DNA of 64,000 nt from positions 337,663 through 401,662 of the forward strand of contig CAWIZL010000002.1 of assembly GCA_963840645.1 (NCBI GenBank), written 5' to 3'. Under the pieces are notes generated by a model. The model saw only the letters and a list, made by a program, of their open reading frames with translations. It ran no database searches and was not told the origin of the DNA. The DNA is from Candidatus Doudnabacteria bacterium. Its GTDB lineage: Bacteria; Patescibacteriota; Doudnabacteria; UBA920; VMFF01. A program made the position numbers and the translations under genes. Below, piece after piece: positions 3,058 through 49,549 of the stretch. Each line of letters opens with the position of its first letter. The stretch's first letter is position 1.

Positions 3058-4218
3058 ATGACCATGGCTACAATACAAGAGGTTCTGAAAGACAGGCTAG
3101 CGGACTACCTGGCCGCGGGCAGAGCAGGCAAGAAGGTGGTGCTGGATGTTCTGGGAACGACCACCCGCATGCACCGGCACGCCATCATCAGGCGGCTGAA
3201 CCAGCTGGCCACCCGTGATCCAGGCTGGGAGAAAAAACGTCCAGGGCGCAGGGAGCGGTACGGCCCGAGGGTGGCGGAAGCCCTGCACGAAATCTGGGGG
3301 CTCGCTGACCACATCTGCGCCGAGCGGCTGCACCCGCAGCTCGGCGAGTGGGTCACGGTATTGAAACGCTGCAAAGAGTGGCGCTACCCAGCCGACACGA
3401 CCGAGCTGCTGCTCTCCATGAGCCTGGGCACGGCCAAAGACAAGATCGAGGCGTTTCCGCGGCTCGCCCGTGGGAACACGGGAACCACCAAGCCGTCCGA
3501 GCTCAAGGAGCTCGTGCCCATCAGGCGCGGCCCGTGGGAGAACCCCGAGCCCGGCAAGGGCGAGGTGGACACGGTCGCCCACTGCGGCACGAGCCTCACC
3601 GGAGACTACGCGTTCACGGTGCAGTACACCGACGTGGCGACGATCTGGACGCTGCTCCGGGCGCAGTGGAACAAGGGCATGCTGGCCACCCGCGACAGCC
3701 TCGAGGCGATGCGGGAGCGGTGCCCGCTGGCCATCACGGGCTTCGACTTCGACTCGGGGAGTGAGTTCATCAACCACGAGGTCGTGCCGTGGTGCAGCAG
3801 CTTGACCCCAAAAATTACCTGCACCAGAACCAGGCCCTACAGGAAGAACGACCACGCCAGGATCGAGCAGAAGAACTACACGAACGTGCGGCACTGGGTC
3901 GGCTACCTGCGCTACGACCAACCCGGGCAGGTCGCCATTCTGAACGAGCTCTACCCGCTGCTCGAGGACTACGTCAACTTCTTCCTGCCGTCCATGAAGT
4001 GCCTGGGCAAGGAGCGGGTTGGCTCGAAGTACAAACGTGTGTACGACACGCCGCAGACCGCCTACGCCAGGGTGCTCGCGCACGAGAAAGTTCCCGAGGG
4101 CGTTAAGGCGGTGCTGAAAGCAAAGTATGCTACACTCAACCCGAAACAATTAAAGTCCAAACTGGAGCAGCTCCAGCAGCGGCTACTGTCGTCTTACCGG
4201 AAGCACCGGCTACAGTAA
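3058..4218 (+). CDS. DDE-type integrase/transposase (rve integrase core)
   Basis: 386 aa. Candidate D,D,E triad in GEVDTVAHCG, FDFDSGSEFINHEV and RPYRKNDHARIEQKNYTNVRHWVGYLRY. The N-terminal region is HTH-like. The stop codon lies inside the right IR. Confidence 0.85.
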   Translation: MTMATIQEVLKDRLADYLAAGRAGKKVVLDVLGTTTRMHRHAIIRRLNQLATRDPGWEKKRPGRRERYGPRVAEALHEIWGLADHICAERLHPQLGEWVTVLKRCKEWRYPADTTELLLSMSLGTAKDKIEAFPRLARGNTGTTKPSELKELVPIRRGPWENPEPGKGEVDTVAHCGTSLTGDYAFTVQYTDVATIWTLLRAQWNKGMLATRDSLEAMRERCPLAITGFDFDSGSEFINHEVVPWCSSLTPKITCTRTRPYRKNDHARIEQKNYTNVRHWVGYLRYDQPGQVAILNELYPLLEDYVNFFLPSMKCLGKERVGSKYKRVYDTPQTAYARVLAHEKVPEGVKAVLKAKYATLNPKQLKSKLEQLQQRLLSSYRKHRLQ

Positions 4219-4236
4219 CAGTTTCTAATTATCTAA
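4209..4236. repeat. IS right inverted repeat
   Basis: GCTACAGTAACAGTTTCTAATTATCTAA, the reverse-complement partner of 3026-3052. Confidence 0.6.
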
Positions 4237-4272
4237 TGCGGAGGGTGCAATGCTGTCTTTTTTAAAACAGTA

Positions 4273-4320
4273 ATGCCACCCCACTGCGCTTTCAGCGCAG
4301 TGGGGTGGCAAGGCATTTTT
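4273..4320. terminator. Bidirectional rho-independent terminator
   Basis: Perfect 15-bp stem GCCACCCCACTGCGC/GCGCAGTGGGGTGGC with a TTTCA loop. T-runs follow on both strands. It sits between the IS and the convergent gene 4319-5056. Confidence 0.6.
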
Positions 4321-5056
4321 AGCTTGGAAGCAGCTGTTCCTGGATGACAGAGCCTGCGCGCCAGTCTGATGCTGGCTCAGGGTAGAAGCGCAGGTCGTCG
4401 TGCCACGGCATCTGCACGAGCAGGGGATTTATCCCAAAACGCTCGCGTAGCTTTACGAATGCAGGTGTAAAAACTTTATCCGTGAGGGTCGCAAGCTCAG
4501 AGCCTGACTCGCCCCCGTGGTAGTCCTCGAACATCACGCCGTGCGCAATGAAGAGGGAGAGGTACGCCTCGTAGTACTGCTCTGCGCTCCCGAACTGTCC
4601 GTAGAAATCAGACAGGTCTTCTCTGGAGTTTGGGATTCGTGAATCGTGGAGGTGGTGGTGAAAGTCTACCAGCCTCTTGCCGCACGTCAGCGTGATCCTG
4701 TCGATTGGCTTGCCGCGCCACTTCTGGAACGGTGCCAGCTGAACAGGCTTAATGACCATGCCATTGCGACGGCCTCGCCTCACGAAGAAGCGCGGACGCA
4801 GCAAGCTCTTCTTTGGCCTTGACTCTGTGCTGAACTTGCCTGCTGTGTACTCGAGCCAGAACGGTGAAAGCTTTGCTGCGGCTGCGTATTCCGAGAACAC
4901 CGCGTCTTCGTAGCGGAAAGTTGCCACAGGTCTCCCGAATCCTGCAATCGGATGACCGGTCAAGAATAGCTGTGGAATTGCCCAGTTATTTTTTGCCCAC
5001 CAGCGCTCAATGTTTGTCCTGAGCACTTTCCGGTGGTCGAAGCTCTCGCCGTGCAC
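4319..5056 (-). CDS. Hypothetical protein
   Basis: 245-aa ORF, GC-rich, with no motif I can name. It contains a His cluster (FHHHLHD). Confidence 0.45.
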   Translation of the reverse strand: MHGESFDHRKVLRTNIERWWAKNNWAIPQLFLTGHPIAGFGRPVATFRYEDAVFSEYAAAAKLSPFWLEYTAGKFSTESRPKKSLLRPRFFVRRGRRNGMVIKPVQLAPFQKWRGKPIDRITLTCGKRLVDFHHHLHDSRIPNSREDLSDFYGQFGSAEQYYEAYLSLFIAHGVMFEDYHGGESGSELATLTDKVFTPAFVKLRERFGINPLLVQMPWHDDLRFYPEPASDWRAGSVIQEQLLPS

Positions 5057-10030: not shown

Positions 10031-11200
10031 TTATTGGCTCGGAGAAGCTTCTAGTGATTCAATTTTTGGCAGCTGAACAACACCGCTTAAGTCTCCGTAA
10101 ATTCCTACGGTATTTTTGATTACTTTCTGCATCTGTTTTTCTTTTTCAGCCCAAGATTTTTCAAAATAAAGCTTTTCTTTATCAAGAGCTAATTTCATGG
10201 ATGAAAATGTTTCAACAATAGTCTCAATTCGTTGTCTAAATTCTGTGCCAGTTAAATATGAATAAAGTAGTTCTACTTTTTCATTCTTACCGATGGACAT
10301 ACCTTTTTCTCTGGAAACAGCCTCCAGGGATTGTCTTAGGGCAATTGCGATTGATACCGCAAATTTTATATTACAAATCCAAACTCCATCGCGAAAAGAA
10401 ATGCCATTTATACCCTCAGGTAGAACGGAAGAAACAATTACTGCAATATCAGCCTTTATCGTTCTTTGATCATCTTTCAATTTTTGTATCCATCCCTCAG
10501 ACCAAGTTTTTGTCTTCTTGGATTCCCAAATAATCGTTCCGCACTCAACGCCTGTTTTAGTTTTGACGGTTTGGATTATATCAGCGCCAGTTACACCTTT
10601 TGGGACTGGTGAAATGTCATCATGGATGAACTCAAATCTCAAAAGTTCTTCAAGAATTATTTCTTGAACCTCTCCTTGGGTCTGTTGCGAACCTTGCTCA
10701 AGCTTTCTTGCAAGTTCATCTTTGGCTTTTGTTGCGTCAGAAAGTTTTTTATTTAGTTGATCAATTTCTGCCTGTTTTACGTCCGTAGCTTTTTTTGATG
10801 CCTCTTCTTCAATTTTTTGTCTTTCTGCGGCTAGTTGACGCTCCTTGTCAATCTCAAAAGTATCTTTATCGTCTTTAAGTTTTTGTTTCTCTTTTATCAG
10901 TGCAATTTCGTTTTTGCGAGCTTCCGTAAGTAGCCTTTCTTTATCGGAGAGCTGGTCTTCTAAATGCTTTCTCTCTAAAATAGACTCCTTCTCAACTTCT
11001 TCTTTAATCTGTTCCTTGTATTTACTTGATTGTTCAGCTATTTCTTTCTTGGTTTTTTCCTCAAAAACTTTTTTTATCTCAACCTCTTTTTTTATAAATT
11101 CTTGTTTGTACTTTGCTTCAAATTGATGTGACAATACATCATCGATAGAAATCGATTCACCGCAGTTAGGGCAAATAATTTTGCTAGTATCTTCTATCAT
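10031..11200 (-). CDS. DUF2130 domain protein (zinc ribbon, coiled coil, nuclease-like C-terminus)
   Basis: 389 aa. N-terminal CPNCGESI, then a ~170-aa Lys/Glu coiled coil. The C-terminal GADIIQTV..GTIIWESKKTKTWSEGWIQKLKDDQRTIKADIAVIVSSVLPEG matches my memory of DUF2130. Confidence 0.7.
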   Translation of the reverse strand: MIEDTSKIICPNCGESISIDDVLSHQFEAKYKQEFIKKEVEIKKVFEEKTKKEIAEQSSKYKEQIKEEVEKESILERKHLEDQLSDKERLLTEARKNEIALIKEKQKLKDDKDTFEIDKERQLAAERQKIEEEASKKATDVKQAEIDQLNKKLSDATKAKDELARKLEQGSQQTQGEVQEIILEELLRFEFIHDDISPVPKGVTGADIIQTVKTKTGVECGTIIWESKKTKTWSEGWIQKLKDDQRTIKADIAVIVSSVLPEGINGISFRDGVWICNIKFAVSIAIALRQSLEAVSREKGMSIGKNEKVELLYSYLTGTEFRQRIETIVETFSSMKLALDKEKLYFEKSWAEKEKQMQKVIKNTVGIYGDLSGVVQLPKIESLEASPSQ

Positions 11201-11268
11201 AGATTAAAAGCCAGTTCTCTCGAGATTTTCCTTGTTTGACGAAAGCCTATTTTTAAAGTTTGTGTATA

Positions 11269-11284
11269 GGAGAGGGGGATTTCC
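11269..11284 (+). repeat. tRNA-Ser 3'-end-like fragment (putative proximal att repeat)
   Basis: GGAGAGGGGGATTTCC compared with GGAGAGGGGGGGATTCG of the tRNA gene 236 nt away. Same orientation. The AT-to-GC switch occurs at this point. Confidence 0.55.
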
Positions 11285-11519
11285 GCGTCGCCCGCCTTCC
11301 GACTTCGCTTACGCTACGTCGGACAGGACTGGCGGCTCGTTGCCCTGGGTTGCGCCAATCTGCCACTGGCAGCTTGGCGATCGCTCGCCTGCATGGTTTC
11401 CTGCAGGAAACCATTTGCCTCGCTTCAACCCGTTCGAATCCCACACCACCTTCCCCGCATGGAAGTCTGCCGGCCACCTCGCCTGCGTGCTCGCAGTCTC
11501 GGTGACCATCAAACTTCCA
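11285..11519. other. GC-rich non-coding structured spacer (possible remnant of an integrated element or an ncRNA)
   Basis: No credible ORF. It is dense in perfect hairpins: ATGGTTTCCTGCAGGAAACCAT, CTGCCAGTGGCAG, GGCGAgcgaTCGCC and CTGCGtgctCGCAG. It also contains a tRNA-Tyr 3'-end-like fragment, GTTCGAATCCCACACCACC (11431-11449). Confidence 0.4.
11299..11327. repeat. GC-rich palindromic motif copy 1 (CCGACTTCGC..GCTACGTCGG)
   Basis: CCGACTTCGCttacGCTACGTCGGACAGG. Related copies are at 43485-43513 and, inverted, at 51229-51275. Confidence 0.45.
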
Positions 11520-11611
11520 TGGCGGAGAGGGGGGGATTCGAACCCCCGAAAGGTTTTGACACCTTTACCGGTTTAGCAAACCAGCGCACTAGGCCTCTAT
11601 GCGACCTCTCC
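11520..11611 (-). tRNA. tRNA-Ser(GCU), CCA encoded
   Basis: The minus strand folds as acceptor GGAGAGG, 3-bp D stem, anticodon stem CTGGT/ACCGG with loop TTGCTAA (anticodon GCT), long variable arm AAAGG..CCTTT, T arm GGGGG-TTCGAAT-CCCCC, then CCTCTCC-G-CCA. Confidence 0.92.
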
Positions 11612-24024: not shown

Positions 24025-24952
24025 GTGGAATTCAGGGAAGACGTTACGCTGGGGATGGACAGTCCTCTGCATCCGCCGCTGTTCAATGGCGGTGGTTGCT
24101 TGAAGTATTTTGACGCAGATTTTCAAAGATGTTCTCGATCTTTGGGAGGTGCAGTCTTGGCGGGGTCGTACACGCTGGAGCATCGAGCTGGCAACGAAGG
24201 ACAAACCTTCTGGATCGACGGCAGCGGGAATGGCTTGAATGCGCTCGGCATGCCAAATCCGGGCAGGCTACCTTTACGAACGTTTGCCAGAGATGTGTAC
24301 AGCTGTGCACGGTAATGGCAAAAAGATGATCGTGAACGTGGCAGGTTTCACGGCCTCTGATTACGGTGAGCTTACGGAGAGCGCTTTTGATCTTGGCGCT
24401 GATGCAGTTGAACTCAACCTCGGCTGCCCAAATGTCGTGACAGCTAATGGTTCTCGGGAACCACCCGCTTCGTACGATCCGGAGTTCCTCGGGTTAATCT
24501 TGGGACGCGTACACAGGCACATCGACGAAGCACCACGTGCCGTATGGGTCAAGGTATCACCAAACCCTGTGGTGAGCATGATCAAAGAACTCGCAGGTAT
24601 CATCGGGGTATTTCCTTTCGTTACGGCTGTTACGTGTAGCAATACATGGCCAGAGGGGTTCATCGTTGACCCAAAGACTGGTAAGCCGCGCATAACGGTG
24701 GGCTACGCTGGGGTCAGCGGAACTTTTCTTCGAACCATGGGTCCAGCGCAGGTAGAGAAGTGGAGGAATGCGCTGCCAGATCGCGTGAGCGTCATTGCAG
24801 CGGGTGGCATTAACTCTGGCAGAGATATTGCCATGTACCAGGAGCGGGGCGCTGTTGCATTTCAGATGGTGACTGGTTTGTTCAGACCAGACACGTACCA
24901 ACTGGACTTCACTAAATTTGAGAGGGTTGCGATGGAGTACGGCAACCTGTAG
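24025..24952 (+). CDS. pyrD: Dihydroorotate dehydrogenase-like (class 1 family; apparent frameshift about 24261-24268)
   Basis: GTG start with a GGGGAGG RBS. LNALGMPNPG in the first frame continues in the second as YLYERL..KKMIVNVAG..ADAVELNLGCPNV..IAAGGINSGRD. Confidence 0.7.
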
Positions 24953-24965
24953 TTCCATAACTCAG

Positions 24966-24991
24966 CCCGGCTGGAAACAGTCGGGTTTTTC
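24966..24991 (+). terminator. Rho-independent terminator after pyrD
   Basis: CCCGGCTG-gaaa-CAGTCGGG followed by TTTTTC. Confidence 0.6.
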
Positions 24992-25007
24992 TTATGGTTA
25001 CGAGGCC

Positions 25008-25036
25008 TTGACAACGTTGGCTCGCTGTGATATTAT
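25008..25036 (+). promoter_or_regulatory. Near-consensus sigma-70 promoter with no downstream ORF
   Basis: TTGACA (25008-25013), 17-nt spacer, TATTAT (25031-25036). Confidence 0.55.
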
Positions 25037-25042
25037 TTTTTT

Positions 25043-25552
25043 GTTCACTGGGTTTGGGTCTCTGCTTCTCGGTTTCGAGGGGTTGAGCTCCTGAATCAAT
25101 TCATAAGGGGGAAACACACTTTACGTAGGGTTTTGGTGCGTATTCTTTGTGGGTTATTCAGGTTTCAGCTTTTTGGAGTCGAGAGTAAGCCCAACTAAGT
25201 GGACACGCGGTGCAGTTTGCCGCTACCTCGTTTGATCGATAAATATGCTAGTCTAATTTGTTGTAAATCGTGGGCAGTAACACGATGCCCATTCCTAAAC
25301 CCTCGTGCATGCGTAGTAAATTTTTGGGAGCTTTCTAAGGGTAAAAGTGGTCTCACGTTTCGCAGTTGAGGCTACCCTGACGACCGTAGATGAGTCCAAA
25401 ATTTTTTACGCAGAAGTTGCCAGCCAATGGTGAATCACAAAAATGCCAAAAGCTGAACCTGTAAGTGTCAGGACATGTAACAACCGCCACGGCCCGGTCA
25501 ACACGGCCTGGGCGCACGAACCATCTCACGATGTAAGTGCGCCCTATTTTTT
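25043..25552 (+). ncRNA. Candidate ~0.5-kb non-coding transcript (unknown class)
   Basis: It is bounded by the promoter at 25008 and a +-oriented intrinsic terminator at 25510-25552. No ORF of 60 aa or more occurs on either strand. Several local hairpins are present, including TGGGCA..TGCCCA at 25271-25291 and CCTGtaagtgtCAGG. Confidence 0.35.
25510..25552 (+). terminator. Rho-independent terminator (+ orientation) abutting the miaA stop
   Basis: GGGCGCAC (25510-25517) pairs with GTGCGCCC (25537-25544), followed by TATTTTTT. Confidence 0.55.
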
Positions 25553-26510
25553 ATCCTAGTAAGAGTTTTTCAACCAGAGTCTTTGCCTCAGCTGTAACTT
25601 TTCTTTTGTCGCCAGTACTGAGCCACACAGCAATTTTATTTCTTTTGAACCACGTGCGCTGGCGTTTTGCGTAGTGCCAGATTGCTGATGCGAGCTGATC
25701 GTGCATTTCTTTCTCGGTTAGCTTCCCATCGAGAAACTCTGATACAAACCTGTACTCAAGTCCAAACGTGAACATTTTCTTTGCGCTCACGCCTGTCTTG
25801 CGTAGTTTTTTCACCTCAGCTACGAGGCCAGCTGCTAAACGTTTTCCCAGTCGGACAGAAATTTTTTTCCTGAGGTCATCAATTGGCAAATCCAGCACGA
25901 GGTAGAGCACGTCAAACTTTGGCGCGGTGTCTATGGTGTGTTTTTTCATACCCTTGTGCGCCTTTTCGTACAGCGCAATTTCAATTGCGCGGATGACGCG
26001 GACTGGATTTTTCAAATCAATTTGAGCGGCACGTGCAGAATTAAGTTTCTCGAGTTGCACAACGAGCTGTGCCAATGGCACCTTTGCCATCTTCGTGTGG
26101 AACCGCTTGTCCATTAGCGCATCTGGAAACTCTTTGCCCAGAGAAACTGCATCAACCCAGTAGCCGCTGCCGCCAACTAAAATTGGCAGGTTGCCGCGAG
26201 ACTGGATTTGCGAAATAGCCCGCAGAGCAGCAGCTTTGTACTTTGACGCATTCCACATTGGCCGCTTCGGATCTGCAACGTCGAGGAGGTGGTGTGGCAC
26301 GCCGAGCATTTCTTTTTTCGTAACCTTGCCAGTGCCAATGTCCATGCCACGGTAAATTTGCCGAGAGTCAGCAGAAACTATTTCAGCACCAACGCCAAAC
26401 TTGCGCTGTACCCACAGCGCAAGTTGAATGCCCAGTTCAGATTTTCCAGTTGCCGTTGCCCCAGCTACGACGATCAGCTTACCAGCTGGTGCGGCCTTTA
26501 ATTTCACCAT
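25551..26510 (-). CDS. miaA: tRNA dimethylallyltransferase
   Basis: 319 aa. P-loop GATATGKS, then SADSRQIYRGMDIGTGK and LVGGSGYW. Confidence 0.92.
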   Translation of the reverse strand: MVKLKAAPAGKLIVVAGATATGKSELGIQLALWVQRKFGVGAEIVSADSRQIYRGMDIGTGKVTKKEMLGVPHHLLDVADPKRPMWNASKYKAAALRAISQIQSRGNLPILVGGSGYWVDAVSLGKEFPDALMDKRFHTKMAKVPLAQLVVQLEKLNSARAAQIDLKNPVRVIRAIEIALYEKAHKGMKKHTIDTAPKFDVLYLVLDLPIDDLRKKISVRLGKRLAAGLVAEVKKLRKTGVSAKKMFTFGLEYRFVSEFLDGKLTEKEMHDQLASAIWHYAKRQRTWFKRNKIAVWLSTGDKRKVTAEAKTLVEKLLLG

Positions 26511-28321
26511 GAATTTTTTCAGAGAATTCTTTCACAGAGAGCGTCACGCCCTCTTTCTGTCCACGGCTGCGAACAGCTACAGCCCCATCAGCCATTTCCT
26601 TGTCGCCGAGCACGAGCATGTACGGAATTTTCGCTGTTTCTGCATCGCGGATCTTCTTGCCAATGGATTCGCTGCGGTCGTCAGTTTCAATGCGAATGCC
26701 AGGCACGCTAGCCTCAAGTTCACGTACAACTTGTTCAGCGTACTCAACGTGATTTTCACCAATTGGCAGTATCTTCACCTGCACAGGTGACAGCCACACA
26801 GGGAATGCGCCGCCGAGGTGCTCAATTATAATTGAGAGGAACCGCTCAATAGAACCCATGATAGCCGCATGGATCATGACAATTCTTTCTTGCCCACCCT
26901 CTTCATTGATGCAGAACAGATCAAAACGCTCAGGCATGTTCCAGTCGAGCTGGATAGTTGCAACCTGCCACTCACGCCCAAGTGAATCTTTGGCCATGAA
27001 GTCAAGCTTCGGTCCGTAGAACGCAGCTTCACCTACACCCTCGAACCAGTCAGTTTTTTTCTCGGTGACAATTTCGCGTAGCGTAGCCTCAGCTGTTTCC
27101 CACTGCTTGGCATCGCCGAGGTACTTTTCCATGTGAGCGGATCGTGGAGTGAAAGGCGCACGCGGAGCTTCAGGCCAAACTTAGGGTAGAACTCGTGGAT
27201 GATGTCCCACACTTTGAGAAATTCTTCTCTCACCTGGCTCGTGCGGCAGAACACGTGCGCATCGTCTTGCGTGAATGCGCGCACGCGCGAAAGGCCGGAG
27301 AGCTCGCCAGACTGCTCATCGCGGTAGCACATTGTGGTGTTCGCGTAGCGCTGCGGAAGTTCGCGGTAGCTCCACTGCTTGCGTGCGTAGATTTGAGTGT
27401 GGTGCGGACAGTTCATGGGCTTCATTGCAAACTCGTGGCCTTCGCGGGTGGTTATGCGAAGAGCTCATCTTTAAATTTATCCCAGTGGCCGCTGCGTTCG
27501 TACAGGTCTTTTTTCGTGATGTGGGGAATTTCAACGCGCATGTAGCCCCGCTCCTTGCGGAGTTCTGAGACAAAACCATCGAGCAGATCTCTGACAGCCA
27601 TGCCTTTTGGTGTCCACAGCGGAAGTCCTGGGCCGACCAGATCTGAGAACGTGAACAGGTCGAGCTGTGGCCCAAGCTTCTTGTGGTCACGCTTCTCAGC
27701 CTCAGTGCGTTGCGCAATGTACGCATCGAGCTCTTCTTTTGTCTCGAACGCCAAGCCGTAGATGCGCTGCATCTGTGGGTTAGCCTGGTCGCCGCGCCAG
27801 TACGCGCCAGACACGCGGTCGAGCTTGAACGACTGGCGATCTATTTCTGAAGTATTCTTGACGTGGCCGCCGCGGCACAGGTCTGTGAATTTGCCAGTGT
27901 GGTAGAGCGAGACGGTTGTAGGTTTTTCGGCTGTAGTTTTTTCTTCACCATCTTTTGCCTGCGCGCCCGTGATGTCTTTGAAAACAGTTGTGCCGTGCTT
28001 TTCAATGTCGCCGATCAGCTCAACCTTGAACGGCTGGCTGTGCTCTACGAAGTACGCTTTTGCATCTGCGAATGACATGTCTTCACGAATGAAGTCGTGG
28101 CCTTCTTTGATGAGCGCGCGCATGCGCACTTCAAGTTTCGCCAAGTCTTCTGGCGTGAGCGGCCGAGGCAGTGCAAAGTCGTAGTAGAACCCGTTGTCTA
28201 TGACAGGGCCAACGCCGAGCTGCGCGTGCGGGAACATTTCTACAACTGCCGCTGCGAGCACGTGCGCGAGCGAGTGGCGGATGTTGTGGAGCGCCCCAGA
28301 TTTTTCTTTGCCTTCTGGCAT
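26479..28321 (-). CDS. thrS: Threonyl-tRNA synthetase (two apparent 1-nt frameshifts, about 27452-27460 and 27136-27143; no N-terminal TGS domain)
   Basis: Track ORFs 27452-28351, 27033-27425 and 26479-27132 join as ..WDKFKDELF/ITTREGHEFAMKPMNCPHH..RVRLSLHDP/HMEKYLGDAK... Contains HSLAHVLAAAV, class II motifs and a C-terminal anticodon-binding domain. Confidence 0.88.
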
Positions 28322-28555
28322 GTGGTTTTCAGTTAAAAATAAAAATCCCAAGCCTGTGTGCTAGCCGCGCGCAATTGCGCAGTTGCAGTAGAGCTTTGGG
28401 GTTCTGTAGCTTTCGCCACGTGTGAACGGTTCCACCCAAACAAACTTTAGGTTGTGCCAGGCTCGCCGCTTGGTGGGCAGGTCAGCGCCTGAGGACTGAG
28501 AAAAGTATAGCAGGGGATACTCAGGCGCGCAAGTTAACCTTACGAAGCCATCAGA
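28322..28555 (-). promoter_or_regulatory. T-box-like leader of thrS
   Basis: The minus strand carries TTTGGGTGGAACCGTTC (28424-28440), close to the T-box consensus GGGTGGtACCGcG. A terminator follows, CCCCAAAGC...GCTTGGG-ATTTTTATTTTT (28335-28402). Its 5' arm (CCCAAA) can alternatively pair with the TTTGGG of the T-box. Confidence 0.55.
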
Positions 28556-39464: not shown

Positions 39465-39570
39465 AGAATTTGGTAATAGTTACTTGGAAAGTTTACCACA
39501 CAGCGCAAGAAAATGCAATGCGCGGGTCGGGGTTAATTTTTGTTTAATGCGTATGTGTCAGTATGAATAC

Positions 39571-40071
39571 ATGACTGTACACATCTATATTGACGCGGCA
39601 AATCTCCACAAAAGTTCAAGGCGGCTTGGTTTTGAAATTGATTATAGAAAATTCTATATGTGGATACGACAGAAGTACGAGGCCGACAGAGTCTACATGT
39701 TCTTTGGTTTTATAGACAAGTACGTAAACCTTTACTCTCGGCTCCGGGAGCACGGCTATATTTTGATGTTCAAAGAGACAATTGTAACCATAGACGGGGA
39801 AGTAAAAGGTAATTGCGATGCTGAGCTAGTTTTAAAAGTTGTCTCAGACTATTATGAGAAAAATTTTGACACCTGTGTTCTCTTGTCGGGAGATGGTGAT
39901 TTTTCTTGTGTCGTAAGTTTTCTTGCCAAGAAGGGGGCACTCCATGCGTTGGTCGTTCCCAGTGAAGCCAGGTGTTCCGCGCTATTAAAGAGAGCATGGC
40001 AGTCCATTGCGCCTTTGGATAAACATTACGCAAAATTCTCAAGAAAGATTTCTAACCTAGATCAAAAATGA
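39571..40071 (+). CDS. NYN (LabA-like) domain protein
   Basis: Start at the internal ATG. VHIYIDAANL..FEIDYRKF...DAELVLKV...VLLSGDGDFSCVV matches the NYN/LabA nuclease fold pattern. Confidence 0.7.
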   Translation: MTVHIYIDAANLHKSSRRLGFEIDYRKFYMWIRQKYEADRVYMFFGFIDKYVNLYSRLREHGYILMFKETIVTIDGEVKGNCDAELVLKVVSDYYEKNFDTCVLLSGDGDFSCVVSFLAKKGALHALVVPSEARCSALLKRAWQSIAPLDKHYAKFSRKISNLDQK

Positions 40072-42290: not shown

Positions 42291-43157
42291 ATGGCGTACG
42301 AGTTCATCCCAGATTTAATACTGGTTGCGAGCGCGGGGGGCATCCTGTGGATGTTCCTGCGTCGCGTTCCTGATGTTGTATCTGGCCGCTCTGCAACAAG
42401 CATCCCAGATGTTTCAGCTGAGCAGAGCACTGACGAGTGGTACGTTCGTGCGTGGGCATCTGTTAAAAAATTCGTGGTTTGGGCAACGCGGCCAGTTTGG
42501 AAGTTCATGCTCGATGCAAAAGATTTCAAGCAGGGGCAGATTATGGCAGCCAAGTTTGCCAGCGTGGTGCGGCCACCTGCGCAGCGGGTTTTGAATATTG
42601 GGCAGATGAGCAGCCTGCGCAAGGCAGACCGCCAGCTGCGCGAAGAAGACTACAGTGGCGCAGAGGAAACGTACCTGGGCGTCATCAAGAAGCACCCACA
42701 CGCGTACGAAGCGTATGAAGGCCTGGTGAAGATTTACCAGCACCAGCACGCGTACGATGAGATCACAGAAATTTTGCGCTACCTGGTGAAGCATAACCCC
42801 CACAATGACAGCTACCTTGCGCAGCTCGGCGCGCAGCTCTTGAAGGCAAAGCGCTACGCTGATGCAGTTGCTGCCTACCAGCGGTCAATTGACATCAACC
42901 CTCTGGTTGCTGTGCGCTTTGTGAACATGGGCCAGGCGTACCAGGCAATGGGAGACTTTGACCTTGCCGAGAAAAACTTTTCCCACGCGCTGGACTTGGA
43001 TCCAACGAACGTGCGCTACCTCACAAAGCTCGTTGACCTGTGGGTTCACGAGGGTGAGCAGGCAAAGGCAACGGCAAAGCTGCAGGGCTTTCTGAAGATG
43101 GATCCTGAGAACGAAGAAGCTAAAGAAAAACTTGCGGAACTCGCCAAAATAGGGTAA
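42291..43157 (+). CDS. TPR repeat protein with N-terminal TM anchor
   Basis: 288 aa with several TPR-like units, for example AEETYLGVIKKHPHAYEAYEGLVKIY and DAVAAYQRSIDINP. Confidence 0.7.
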   Translation: MAYEFIPDLILVASAGGILWMFLRRVPDVVSGRSATSIPDVSAEQSTDEWYVRAWASVKKFVVWATRPVWKFMLDAKDFKQGQIMAAKFASVVRPPAQRVLNIGQMSSLRKADRQLREEDYSGAEETYLGVIKKHPHAYEAYEGLVKIYQHQHAYDEITEILRYLVKHNPHNDSYLAQLGAQLLKAKRYADAVAAYQRSIDINPLVAVRFVNMGQAYQAMGDFDLAEKNFSHALDLDPTNVRYLTKLVDLWVHEGEQAKATAKLQGFLKMDPENEEAKEKLAELAKIG

Positions 43158-43194: not shown

Positions 43195-43479
43195 GGGTGG
43201 TTAGCGAAGTAGACAAACGCAGCTGACTGTAGGCATTGCAGCTCTTGTGGGAAACTACAGGATGAACTTTCCGGGATAACGGTGAACGCTAAAGCCGCAA
43301 GGCCATGCCAATACCGTGGGAACTCCTGAATTGCAGGGGAGCGCCGTAGAGACTAGATACCGGGGCACCTAACGCGAAAGCTACGGTGAAGATATAGTCC
43401 ATGCCTTACGGAAACGTGGGGAGTCAGTGAAATCAGCCGCCCTGTGCCTTCGTAGGTGCAAATCCTACACCACCCACCA
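43195..43479 (+). tRNA. tRNA-Tyr(GUA) interrupted by a group I intron in the anticodon loop
   Basis: The exons give GGGTGGT-TA-GCG..CGC-A-GCTGA-CTGT|AAA-TCAGC, a long variable arm, GTAGG-TGCAAAT-CCTAC, then ACCACCC-A-CCA. This is the same architecture as E. coli tRNA-Tyr (GCAGA-CTGTAAA-TCTGC, A73). Confidence 0.8.
43231..43429 (+). ncRNA. Group I intron (IC3-like, ~199 nt, no ORF)
   Basis: The core CCGTAGAGACTAGATACCGGGGCACCTAACGCGAAAGCTACGG...GAAGATATAGTCC closely resembles the catalytic cores of the Azoarcus and cyanobacterial tRNA introns. The 5' exon ends in U, the intron ends in G, and the IGS ATT-GCAG can pair with the exon sequences CUGU and AA. Confidence 0.8.
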
Positions 43480-48564: not shown

Positions 48565-48822
48565 ATGTTGAAAAAACATTGGCACACCTACATCTTGCTC
48601 TGTGCTGACGGCACGCTCTACACTGGCATTACCAATGACCTCCAGCGCAGGCTCACCCAGCATTCCACAGGCAAAGGCGCAAAGTACACGCGTTCTCACG
48701 GCGCGCGCCAGCTTGTCTACTCAGAAGCCCACGCAAGCCGCAGCGCAGCATTAACGAGAGAAGCTGCAGTAAAAAAGCTGACGCGCACACAGAAGCAAGC
48801 TCTCATTAGCACCCACACCTAA
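48565..48822 (+). CDS. GIY-YIG nuclease family protein
   Basis: 85 aa. WHTYILLCADGTLYTGITNDLQRRLTQH..GKGAKYTR. Confidence 0.8.
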   Translation: MLKKHWHTYILLCADGTLYTGITNDLQRRLTQHSTGKGAKYTRSHGARQLVYSEAHASRSAALTREAAVKKLTRTQKQALISTHT

Positions 48823-48827
48823 CCACC

Positions 48828-49525
48828 ATGGCAAAGCTCTACGGCCACACAAACAGGCTGTCGCAATCGTTCGCTGCAACGTACGCAGCAATAGTGTTGG
48901 CGTGCATTGTATTCTCCGCCCTTGCGATCATGGGCTACGTAGCCAGCGGCTCGTGGCACGTGCTGCTTGCGCTCATCCCGCTGCTGTTCATTTTGTACCT
49001 GGTCTACAGAAAAGCTGGGCACCGCTTCAGCAACTACCTCCAGGGCATGAAGGGTGAGCGCATTGTCGCCCAAATTTTGGCGCACGAACTACCAGACACG
49101 TTCAGCATTTACAGAGGGGCAATCGTGAACCCTCTGCACGGAGACATTGACCTCACCGTGCTGGCCCGACAGGGCTGTTCGCCGTAGAGGTGAAGAGCCA
49201 CGGTGGCAACGTGTCGTTCAACGGAGTTGAGCTCACCCGCAATGGCCAGCTCTTCAACAAGAATTTTTTGAAGCAGGCAAAGTCTGAAGCTCTCGGCTTG
49301 CAAGACTACCTGGCTAAGAACCTGCACCAGGATATTTACGTAAAGCCTGTGCTAGTTTTTTCATCACCACACGCCCGTCTTCGCGTAAACGGCGGCTCTG
49401 CCCTGGGTATTTTTGTGACCACAGCGCAAGAACTGGCGTACGTTATTGTGTCTCAGCCCCCTTACCAGTTTCCAGTCACAGTGGCATCTATTGGGTCGCA
49501 CCTCGAAGCTCTCTGCAGCCAGTAG
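48828..49525 (+). CDS. NERD domain protein with N-terminal TMs (apparent 1-nt frameshift about 49161-49168)
   Basis: Track ORFs 48828-49187 and 49190-49525. GMKGERIVAQIL..HGDIDLTVLA is followed in the adjacent frame by PTGLFAVEVKSHGGNV. Confidence 0.65.
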
Positions 49526-49549
49526 CTGCTTCCGTGCTATGATGACCCT

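What the first reader, a model, noticed from the sequence alone, without database searches (positions are those of the whole stretch)
25008..25552. Orphan promoter-to-terminator unit (~0.5 kb) with no ORF: candidate large ncRNA
A near-consensus promoter (TTGACA, 17 nt spacer, TATTAT at 25008-25036) faces a 560-bp stretch with no ORF of 60 aa or more on either strand. The stretch ends in a +-oriented intrinsic terminator (GGGCGCAC..GTGCGCCC-TATTTTTT, 25510-25552) that abuts the stop of the convergent miaA. The interval is G+U-rich on the + strand and has several local hairpins. The only coding options are very short, for example a 31-codon GTG ORF at about 25346 preceded by AAGGG. I could not match it to RNase P, SRP, 6S, tmRNA or a riboswitch class by eye.
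Basis: seen in the sequence. Interest (0 to 1): 0.55.

Follow-up and report, generated by a model that had tools for sequence, protein, structure and literature searches.

The report
Orphan RNA gene with giant hairpin
Between two housekeeping genes of an uncultivated CPR (Patescibacteria) bacterium lies a promoter-to-terminator unit of about 510 bases that encodes no recognisable protein and whose first 162 bases fold, on the transcribed RNA strand only, into a very long hairpin; it has no relatives anywhere I could search, so its role is unknown.

Summary
A TTGACA-17-TATTAT promoter with an extended -10 TG (25008-25036) faces about 510 nt that end in a + strand intrinsic terminator (25510-25552). 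No ORF of 60 aa or more lies between pyrD and miaA.

Bases 25043-25204, starting at the predicted transcription start, form one 67-bp hairpin with 20 G·U pairs (-71.8 kcal/mol, z = -7.0). It is weak as minus-strand RNA (z = -2.2) and as DNA (z = -1.3). It shows the largest strand asymmetry of folding in the 64-kb window.

Rfam, Pfam, PHROGs, protein searches and DNA searches found nothing real. The two closest sampled relatives have miaA 47-57 bp from the convergent gene, so the unit is absent there. The terminator hairpin is ancestral to the locus.

Best reading: a lineage-specific non-coding RNA gene whose 5' domain is a double-stranded rod kept paired at the RNA level. It may be an RNase III substrate or a protein ligand, but that function is inferred only.

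With one sequence, covariation cannot be tested. The assembly also carries frameshifts, so a masked small gene is not fully excluded. Interest is moderate.

The parts
24964..24995 (+). Terminator of pyrD (AGCCCGGCTG-gaaa-CAGTCGGGTT plus T run). It is the left boundary of the unit and is orthologous to the single hairpin between miaA and pyrD in relative L001.
25008..25036 (+). Sigma-70-type promoter: -35 TTGACA, 17-nt spacer, extended -10 TG-n-TATTAT.
25043..25204 (+). HP1, a single rod-like hairpin that starts at the predicted transcription start (G at 25043, 7 nt after the -10). It has 67 pairs, 20 of them G·U. The largest internal loop is 3 nt, and most pair probabilities are 0.9 or higher.
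25270..25292 (+). Small 7-bp hairpin GUGGGCA-9 nt-UGCCCAU in an otherwise unstructured linker (25208-25305, z 0.06).
25310..25412 (+). HP2, a second imperfect hairpin (z -2.9 on +, -1.4 on -). It buries the AAGGG motif and the GTG of the 28-codon ORF 25347-25433.
25510..25552 (+). Intrinsic terminator for the + strand transcript: an 8-bp GC-rich stem, an internal 4-bp stem, then UAUUUUUU. It abuts the miaA stop (25551-25553). An orthologous hairpin follows miaA in L003 and L004.

Best explanation
A stand-alone, lineage-specific non-coding RNA gene. Inferred: RNA polymerase starts at about 25043 from a near-consensus promoter and stops at the terminator that abuts miaA, giving an RNA of about 510 nt. 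Shown: the first 162 nt fold into a 67-bp double-stranded rod that exists only in the + strand RNA, because 20 of its pairs are G·U. This lets the RNA be fully paired while the DNA is only a poor palindrome. Inferred: the rod is the functional core. It would protect the 5' end and act as a ligand or substrate for a double-strand-specific protein. RNase III is the most likely candidate; it would cut the rod and so set the level of the RNA or release a processed product. Less likely, the rod is a decoy for another protein. The 3' two-thirds (HP2 plus linkers) would be the released or regulated part, or a spacer.
For: - Promoter: 11/12 plus TG. Sites this strong are about 9-fold enriched over shuffles, and most of the others precede candidate ORFs.
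- Most genes here appear leaderless, with ATG 6-10 nt after a -10 box. This promoter has no start codon at the transcription start, which fits a non-coding product.
- HP1 starts at the predicted +1. It scores z -7.0 as + RNA, -2.2 as - RNA and -1.3 as + ssDNA.
- HP1 shows the largest strand asymmetry of folding energy among the 1,596 170-nt windows scanned on both strands (-38 kcal/mol against -26 for the next).
- An arm-to-arm DNA alignment blind to wobble gives 47 Watson-Crick positions, 17 G·T and 1 A·C.
- G+T richness is limited to HP1 (0.64 against 0.49 for the rest of the same unit). This argues against a mutation bias acting across the whole transcription unit.
- The terminator has dG -21 and z -4.0.
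- No coding signal: hexamer scores of all frames run from -0.72 to 0.10. No Pfam or PHROGs hit. No protein homologue. None of the ORFs I looked up appears in the 15-billion-protein collection.
- No single hairpin of more than 60 pairs appears in 52,746 windows of related loci.
Against: - There is only one sequence, so no covariation test is possible and no expression data exist.
- The unit is absent at the syntenic site of the two nearest relatives and has no homologue elsewhere. It could therefore be young and dispensable.
- If HP1's own G+T-rich composition is taken as given, the 17:1 G·T to A·C excess is only marginal (my estimate, p about 0.05).
- The 3' 345 nt fold no better than shuffles.
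- The RNase III role is pure inference, and no rnc gene was looked for because only 64 kb are visible.
- The assembly has at least 5 frameshifts in about 9 kb of neighbouring genes, so sequence errors could mask a short gene.
- Rfam may not recognise divergent CPR RNAs. By my reading the thrS leader looks T-box-like, yet Rfam gives no hit there, so a negative Rfam result is weak evidence.
Confidence: 0.5

Rival explanations
1. Young, selectively neutral DNA. This would be a leftover of an insertion or inverted duplication between pyrD and miaA that happens to carry or create a promoter. It is transcribed but has no function.
For: - Present only in this genome. L001 has 47 bp and L004 has 57 bp between miaA and the convergent gene.
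- In 12 of 14 related loci the next ORF follows miaA within 60 nt.
- No homologue anywhere searched.
- The 3' two-thirds have no excess structure.
Against: - Neutral decay of a DNA palindrome should give G·T and A·C mismatches alike, but 17 and 1 are seen.
- The fold is significant only as + strand RNA.
- The G+T excess stops at the end of the hairpin.
- The hairpin starts exactly at the predicted +1 of one of the strongest promoters in the window.
- No terminal repeats, target duplications or second copy.
- Streamlined CPR genomes rarely keep 0.6 kb of junk (background knowledge).
Confidence: 0.2
2. A structured mRNA for one or more very small proteins. Candidates are the 20-21-aa ORF at 25133/25136-25198 in the descending arm of HP1, or the 28-aa ORF at 25347-25433 in HP2. 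Translation would be gated by the hairpins, as in type I toxin mRNAs.
For: - AGGG lies 5 nt before GTG 25136 near the HP1 apex.
- AAGGG lies 4 nt before GTG 25347 and pairs with UACCCU in HP2.
- Sporadic presence among relatives is typical of toxin-antitoxin loci (background knowledge).
Against: - No peptide has a membrane-spanning hydrophobic stretch.
- Hexamer coding scores are -0.72 and 0.00.
- No convincing antisense promoter; only 9/12 sites.
- Most genes in this genome appear leaderless or use GGAGG, not AAGGG.
- The ORF sequences I looked up are not in the protein collection.
Confidence: 0.1
3. A divergent housekeeping RNA of the 6S or Ms1 kind. This would be a rod-shaped RNA that binds RNA polymerase and has diverged too far in CPR for the Rfam models to find it.
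For: - HP1 is 162 nt, its 5' and 3' ends pair, and it has its own strong sigma-70 promoter.
- Rfam may not recognise divergent CPR RNAs, given no T-box hit on a thrS leader that looks T-box-like by eye.
Against: - No central bubble. The largest internal loop is 3 nt and pairs across the middle have probability 0.9-1.0.
- No hit to any Rfam family at E up to 10.
- A housekeeping RNA should exist in the closest relatives, yet nothing similar lies at the syntenic site or in 1.6 Mb of related loci.
- A 350-nt 3' extension is not a 6S feature (background knowledge).
Confidence: 0.08
4. A protein-coding gene, degraded or hidden by assembly frameshifts. One example is the two adjacent minus-strand ORFs 25353-25529 and 25195-25356, which together make about 111 aa.
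For: - The neighbouring pyrD, thrS (twice), dnaE and CYTH genes are all frameshifted relative to intact homologues.
- The two minus-strand ORFs abut with a 4-nt overlap.
Against: - No Pfam or PHROGs hit for any of 10 open frames.
- No similarity to relatives' loci at protein level.
- The word-indexed search of 5.8 billion proteins found nothing.
- Exhaustive phmmer found only repeat-protein artefacts.
- Hexamer scores are -0.06 and -0.43.
- The minus-strand frame would start inside the terminator hairpin.
- HP1's composition (G>C, T>A) fits neither coding strand of this genome.
Confidence: 0.07

Closest known systems
6S RNA (Rfam RF00013) and mycobacterial Ms1
   Same: A rod-like RNA of about 160-190 nt closed by pairing of its 5' and 3' ends, with its own strong sigma-70 promoter and no coding capacity.
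   Different: - No central bubble.
- No covariance-model hit.
- A 350-nt 3' tail ending in an intrinsic terminator.
- Not found in the closest relatives.
RNase III-processed long hairpins in bacterial and phage transcripts (for example lambda sib and T7 R1.1; recalled from memory, not tested here), and hairpin RNAs from repeat elements such as ERIC, BOX and Correia
   Same: An intergenic transcript with a long near-continuous double-stranded stem, far above the roughly 20 bp that RNase III needs. It is present in some related genomes and absent in others.
   Different: - A single copy in 64 kb, and none in 1.6 Mb of relatives.
- No terminal inverted repeats or target duplications.
- The DNA is a poor palindrome because 30% of the pairs are G·U.
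- It has its own promoter at the base of the stem.
Type I toxin-antitoxin mRNAs (hok/sok, AapA/IsoA)
   Same: An orphan strong promoter, a highly folded RNA of a few hundred nt with Shine-Dalgarno-like motifs buried in stems, and patchy distribution.
   Different: - No hydrophobic small ORF.
- No antisense promoter.
- No coding signal.
Large bacterial ncRNAs in Rfam (OLE, GOLLD, ROOL, HEARO, raiA)
   Same: Overall size (about 0.5 kb), an intergenic position and no ORF.
   Different: - No match to any of the 4227 Rfam models.
- Those families are multi-domain and conserved across many genomes, whereas this is a singleton.
- Only about half of its length is structured.

Membership tests
Stand-alone bacterial ncRNA gene (generic) | Own promoter, own terminator and no translatable ORF between them | tested here: met
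   Promoter 11/12 plus TG. Terminator z -4.0. No ORF of 60 aa or more and no coding signal or homologue.
Stand-alone bacterial ncRNA gene (generic) | Transcript detected; structure or sequence conserved in relatives | tested here: not met
   Conservation: the unit is absent from the syntenic site in L001 and L004, and nhmmer finds nothing in 103 related loci. Expression cannot be tested with these tools.
6S RNA | Large central bubble flanked by closing and internal stems | tested here: not met
   The largest internal loop in HP1 is 3 nt. Central pairs have probability 0.9-1.0.
6S RNA | Match to the Rfam covariance model | tested here: not met
   No hit at E up to 10 over 24850-25700. The E-value is scaled by 4227 families, so a very weak match could have been missed.
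6S RNA | Binds the sigma-70 holoenzyme and templates product RNA | not testable with these tools
   Needs biochemistry.
Type I toxin-antitoxin | Small hydrophobic toxin ORF | tested here: not met
   The + strand ORFs of 21-56 aa have no stretch long enough to span a membrane. Hexamer scores run from -0.72 to 0.0.
Type I toxin-antitoxin | Overlapping antisense RNA with its own promoter | tested here: not met
   The only minus-strand promoter-like site within the unit is 9/12, at 25573-25546 inside the miaA end.
Miniature inverted-repeat or palindromic repeat element | Multiple copies; terminal inverted repeats and target-site duplication | tested here: not met
   No second copy in the window or in related loci. 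No boundary repeats. The rest of the 407-kb contig could not be searched.
Known Rfam families (all 4227) | Covariance-model score at or near the gathering threshold | tested here: not met
   The only sub-threshold hit in the interval is the pyrD terminator hairpin, scored as Acido-Lenti-1 at 18.5 bits against a threshold of 37.
Degraded protein gene | Protein-level similarity in any frame | tested here: not met
   Not every frame went through the large databases; only two did.

The most novel reading that the evidence does not exclude
A bacterial 'hairpin RNA' gene. This would be a dedicated locus whose product is a 67-bp wobble-rich double-stranded RNA made from a single transcript. It would be processed by RNase III into small duplexes or a stable 3' product with a regulatory or defensive role in a CPR episymbiont, the bacterial counterpart of eukaryotic hairpin-RNA loci.
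Probability: 0.1. Interest if true: 0.7.

Novelty: new variant of a known kind. Interest (0 to 1): 0.4.

Why it matters
Almost nothing is known about regulatory RNAs in CPR (Patescibacteria) bacteria, whose genomes are small and tightly packed. A 0.6-kb non-coding unit with a consensus promoter and a 67-bp strand-specific RNA rod is unusual in such a genome. If expressed, it would be one of the longest single-transcript double-stranded RNA stems that I know of (from memory, not checked) encoded as its own gene in a bacterium. The case also shows a way to call the transcribed strand and RNA-level constraint from a single sequence: compare folding z-scores of the + RNA, the - RNA and the DNA, and check whether the composition change is confined to the stem. 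Its value is limited because it is a singleton with no conservation and no expression data.

Tried and rejected
- **Rfam.** At gathering and at E-value thresholds there was nothing in the interval.
- **tRNA and tmRNA scan.** Nothing here.
- **Tandem or TIGR-like repeats.** None.
- **Internal duplication.** The apparent 32-nt direct repeat (25197 and 25345) scores 24 against shuffles of 19.1 +/- 2.3, which is not significant.
- **Second copy in the window.** None.
- **Similarity to relatives' loci.** None at protein or DNA level.
- **Phage and plasmid collections.** blastn in distant mode gave no match.
- **Pattern scans.** A pattern of the 3' arm that tolerates pair-preserving transitions found nothing in viral or JGI metagenome contigs.
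- **MiaA-anchored scan of GTDB genomes.** No close relative.
- **DnaE-anchored scans.** These gave 80 and 18 loci, all at or below 73% identity (about 65% or less over the full-length match) and without the unit.
- **PyrD-anchored protein search.** Only L001 is close.
- **Exact look-ups.** The ORFs in the interval are not in the collection. The PyrD look-up is not on record. The only other contig with the identical MiaA has no DNA available.
- **Exhaustive phmmer with the 56-aa + frame.** The E = 3e-24 hit is a 27-residue, 9/27 match repeated 30 times in a 3141-aa repeat protein, so it was rejected as an artefact.
- **Strand-asymmetric window in L004 (2760-2990).** This is a composition effect, z +0.2.
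- **Replication terminus or dif idea.** Based on local GC skew, it was dropped because gene orientation switches many times across the window.
- **Literature searches.** No described class of this kind in CPR.

Full report
**Context**

The window comes from a Patescibacteria (CPR) genome close to Doudnabacteria. The best MiaA and DnaE matches are Doudnabacteria and Patescibacteria MAGs. The lineage is thinly sampled:
- The nearest relatives are a 26.9-kb JGI contig (L004: DnaE 90-92%, MiaA 76% identical), a 2.2-kb contig (L001: MiaA 66%, PyrD 60%) and a 956-bp contig (L003).
- GTDB representatives reach only about 64% DnaE identity over the full-length match; one 280-residue partial hit reaches 73%.

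The local gene order is CYTH (+), pyrC (-), pyrD (+, ends 24952), the interval in question, then miaA, thrS, a small ORF and dnaE, all on the minus strand.

**Observation check**

The promoter is as described: TTGACA, 17 nt, TATTAT at 25008-25036, 11 of 12 matches, with an extended -10 TG.
- In the whole window, 7 sites reach 11/12 against 0.8 in block shuffles. Most of the others lie just upstream of candidate ORFs, so the consensus is informative in this organism.
- No ORF of 60 aa or more lies between pyrD and miaA.
- The + strand terminator is GGGCGCAC, a 19-nt loop with an inner 4-bp stem, GTGCGCCC, then UAUUUUUU. It is real (dG -21.0, z -4.0) and its T tract overlaps the miaA stop at 25551-25553.

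Three details need correction:
- The GTG ORF at 25347 has 28 codons, not 31.
- G+U richness is confined to 25043-25204 (G+T 0.64). The next 305 nt are at 0.49.
- pyrD has its own terminator at 24964-24995, so the unit is not a pyrD 3' UTR.

**Anatomy**

Bases 25043-25204 begin at the G seven nucleotides after the -10 box and fold into one unbranched hairpin of 67 pairs (26 G-C or C-G, 21 A-U or U-A, 20 G·U). The free energy is -71.8 kcal/mol. Dinucleotide shuffles average -42.7 +/- 4.1, giving z = -7.0.
- Pair probabilities are mostly 0.9-1.0, and no internal loop exceeds 3 nt.
- The reverse complement folds at only -32.3 (z -2.2), and the + strand as DNA at -17 (z -1.3). The structure is therefore a property of the + strand RNA.
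- In a 170-nt sliding scan of the window on both strands, this position has the largest strand asymmetry (-38 kcal/mol; the next is -26).
- An arm-against-arm DNA alignment that gives no credit to wobble pairs has 47 Watson-Crick columns, 17 G·T, 1 A·C, 10 other mismatches and 11 gap columns.
- Against a symmetric null, 17:1 is very unlikely. If the hairpin's own G+T-rich composition is taken as given, it is only marginal (my estimate, p about 0.05).
- The composition shift stops at the end of the hairpin although the transcription unit continues. This argues against a transcription-coupled mutation bias and for selection on RNA pairing.

Downstream come four segments:
- an unstructured linker with one 7-bp hairpin (25208-25305, z 0.06);
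- a second imperfect hairpin (25310-25412, z -2.9 on +, -1.4 on -);
- another unstructured stretch (z +0.75);
- the terminator.

The 345 nt after HP1, taken together, fold no better than shuffles (z -1.3).

**Is it coding?**

Most genes in this window lack a Shine-Dalgarno sequence and have a -10-like box 6-10 nt before the ATG, which suggests leaderless mRNAs. A minority use GGAGG. The promoter here has no start codon at the predicted start site. No evidence for a gene was found:
- Hexamer coding scores of all open frames in the interval run from -0.72 to 0.10. Held-out real genes score about 0.0 to 0.6, so the separation is imperfect.
- Ten open frames gave no Pfam or PHROGs hit better than E 0.12.
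- The frames have no similarity to the relatives' loci or to the rest of the window.
- The 65-aa minus frame found nothing among 5.8 billion proteins.
- Exhaustive phmmer with the 56-aa plus frame returned only repeat-protein artefacts.
- None of the ORFs I looked up is in the 15-billion-protein collection, which does hold this contig's MiaA and PyrD.

One caveat remains. pyrD, thrS (twice), dnaE and CYTH are frameshifted relative to intact homologues, and not at homopolymers. The assembly may therefore contain indel errors, and a short masked gene cannot be fully excluded.

**Comparative evidence**

In L001, miaA and pyrD converge with 47 bp between them. That gap holds a single hairpin orthologous to the window's pyrD terminator. 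In L004, miaA and CYTH converge with 57 bp between them. That gap holds a hairpin, TTGCGCACA-20 nt-TGTGCGCAA, which matches the window's terminator stem (GCGCAC/GTGCGC) with outer pairs changed from GG-CC to TT-AA.

The window therefore carries both ancestral hairpins, with about 515 bp (promoter plus RNA body) between them. The terminator was not brought in by the unit.
- Among 14 related loci where it can be judged, the next ORF follows miaA within 60 nt in 12.
- nhmmer with the whole unit or with HP1 finds nothing in 103 related loci totalling 1.6 Mb.
- blastn finds nothing in phage or plasmid collections.
- A transition-tolerant pattern of the 3' arm finds nothing in viral or JGI metagenome contigs.
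- A folding scan of 52,746 windows from related loci gave no single hairpin of more than 60 pairs, and none that combined comparable energy with strand asymmetry.

The unit is a singleton, so covariation cannot be tested.

**Interpretation**

The best-supported reading (confidence about 0.5) is a lineage-specific non-coding RNA gene whose functional core is a long double-stranded 5' rod.
- Shown: the promoter and terminator signals, the strand-specific fold, the lack of coding signal and the lack of homologues.
- Inferred: that it is transcribed, that the wobble-rich design is selected, and that a double-strand-specific protein such as RNase III acts on it. The design keeps the RNA fully paired while avoiding an unstable perfect DNA palindrome.

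The rivals, in order of likelihood:
- transcribed but functionless young DNA (0.2);
- a hairpin-gated mRNA for a 20-28-aa peptide (0.1);
- a divergent 6S-like RNA (0.08; the defining central bubble is absent);
- a degraded or frameshift-masked gene (0.07).

**Comparison with known families and novelty**

The unit works most like a long RNase III-type hairpin transcript and looks superficially like 6S RNA. It fails the testable membership criteria of 6S RNA, type I toxin-antitoxin loci, palindromic repeat elements and every Rfam family.

One caution applies to the Rfam result. Rfam may not recognise divergent CPR RNAs. By my reading the thrS leader in this window looks T-box-like, yet it gets no Rfam hit, so negative Rfam results are weak evidence here.

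I rate the unit a new variant of a known kind: a stand-alone bacterial ncRNA gene with an unusually long, wobble-rich single-transcript stem. Interest is moderate (0.4), because the structure is striking but the element is an unconserved singleton without expression data.

Noticed in passing
window 28322-28530 (- strand), upstream of thrS; also L012, L014, L017, L022 and L066 just upstream of thrS: The thrS leader has T-box-like features: CCCACCAAG with a Thr ACC codon, GGGTGGAACCG at 28437-28427, and a terminator before the ATG at 28321. Rfam gives no T-box hit even at E 10. More distant relatives share a different conserved leader core (CTGGGACGGAAACGTC, then CCCCAGG and a terminator), which also gets no Rfam hit. 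These may be divergent CPR T-boxes or a new thrS attenuator.
   Followed up: partly
window 40154-40060 (- strand): A perfect 12/12 promoter (TTGACA-16-TATAAT) is followed by only about 55 nt and a terminator-like CCCTGCCGGGGGCTTTTTCATTTTT. This would be a tiny orphan transcript converging on ORF 39484-40071.
   Followed up: no
window 11190-11530 (- strand), downstream of tRNA-Ser: A G-rich, very stable fold (-144 kcal/mol for 341 nt, z -5.9) with no ORF and no significant Rfam hit. The only sub-threshold match is sX4, at 31.7 bits against a threshold of 70.
   Followed up: partly
window 43220-43421 (+ strand): A sub-threshold but significant group I intron match (37.9 bits, threshold 50, E 4e-6). 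It lies in the spacer between ORF 42291-43157 and the tRNA-Thr genes, not inside any detected tRNA or rRNA.
   Followed up: no
window about 22345, 24270, 27130, 27443 and 30610: CYTH, pyrD, thrS (twice) and dnaE are each split by a frameshift relative to intact homologues in L001 and L004. The sites are not at homopolymer runs, so these are assembly indel errors, real pseudogenes or recoding.
   Followed up: partly
whole window (gene starts listed): Most genes lack a Shine-Dalgarno sequence and have a -10-like box 6-10 nt before the ATG. This suggests widespread leaderless mRNAs in this CPR genome.
   Followed up: partly
window 4190-4420: A strong hairpin, symmetric on both strands (17-bp perfect stem GCCACCCCACTGCGCTT/...; z -5.2), lies between convergent genes 3058-4218 and 4319-5056. 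It is probably a bidirectional terminator, and it contrasts with the strand-specific HP1.
   Followed up: partly
window 48640-48850 (- strand): The second-largest strand asymmetry of folding in the window (-68 kcal/mol on the minus strand against -38 on the plus strand), next to a gap without long ORFs (48700-49549).
   Followed up: no
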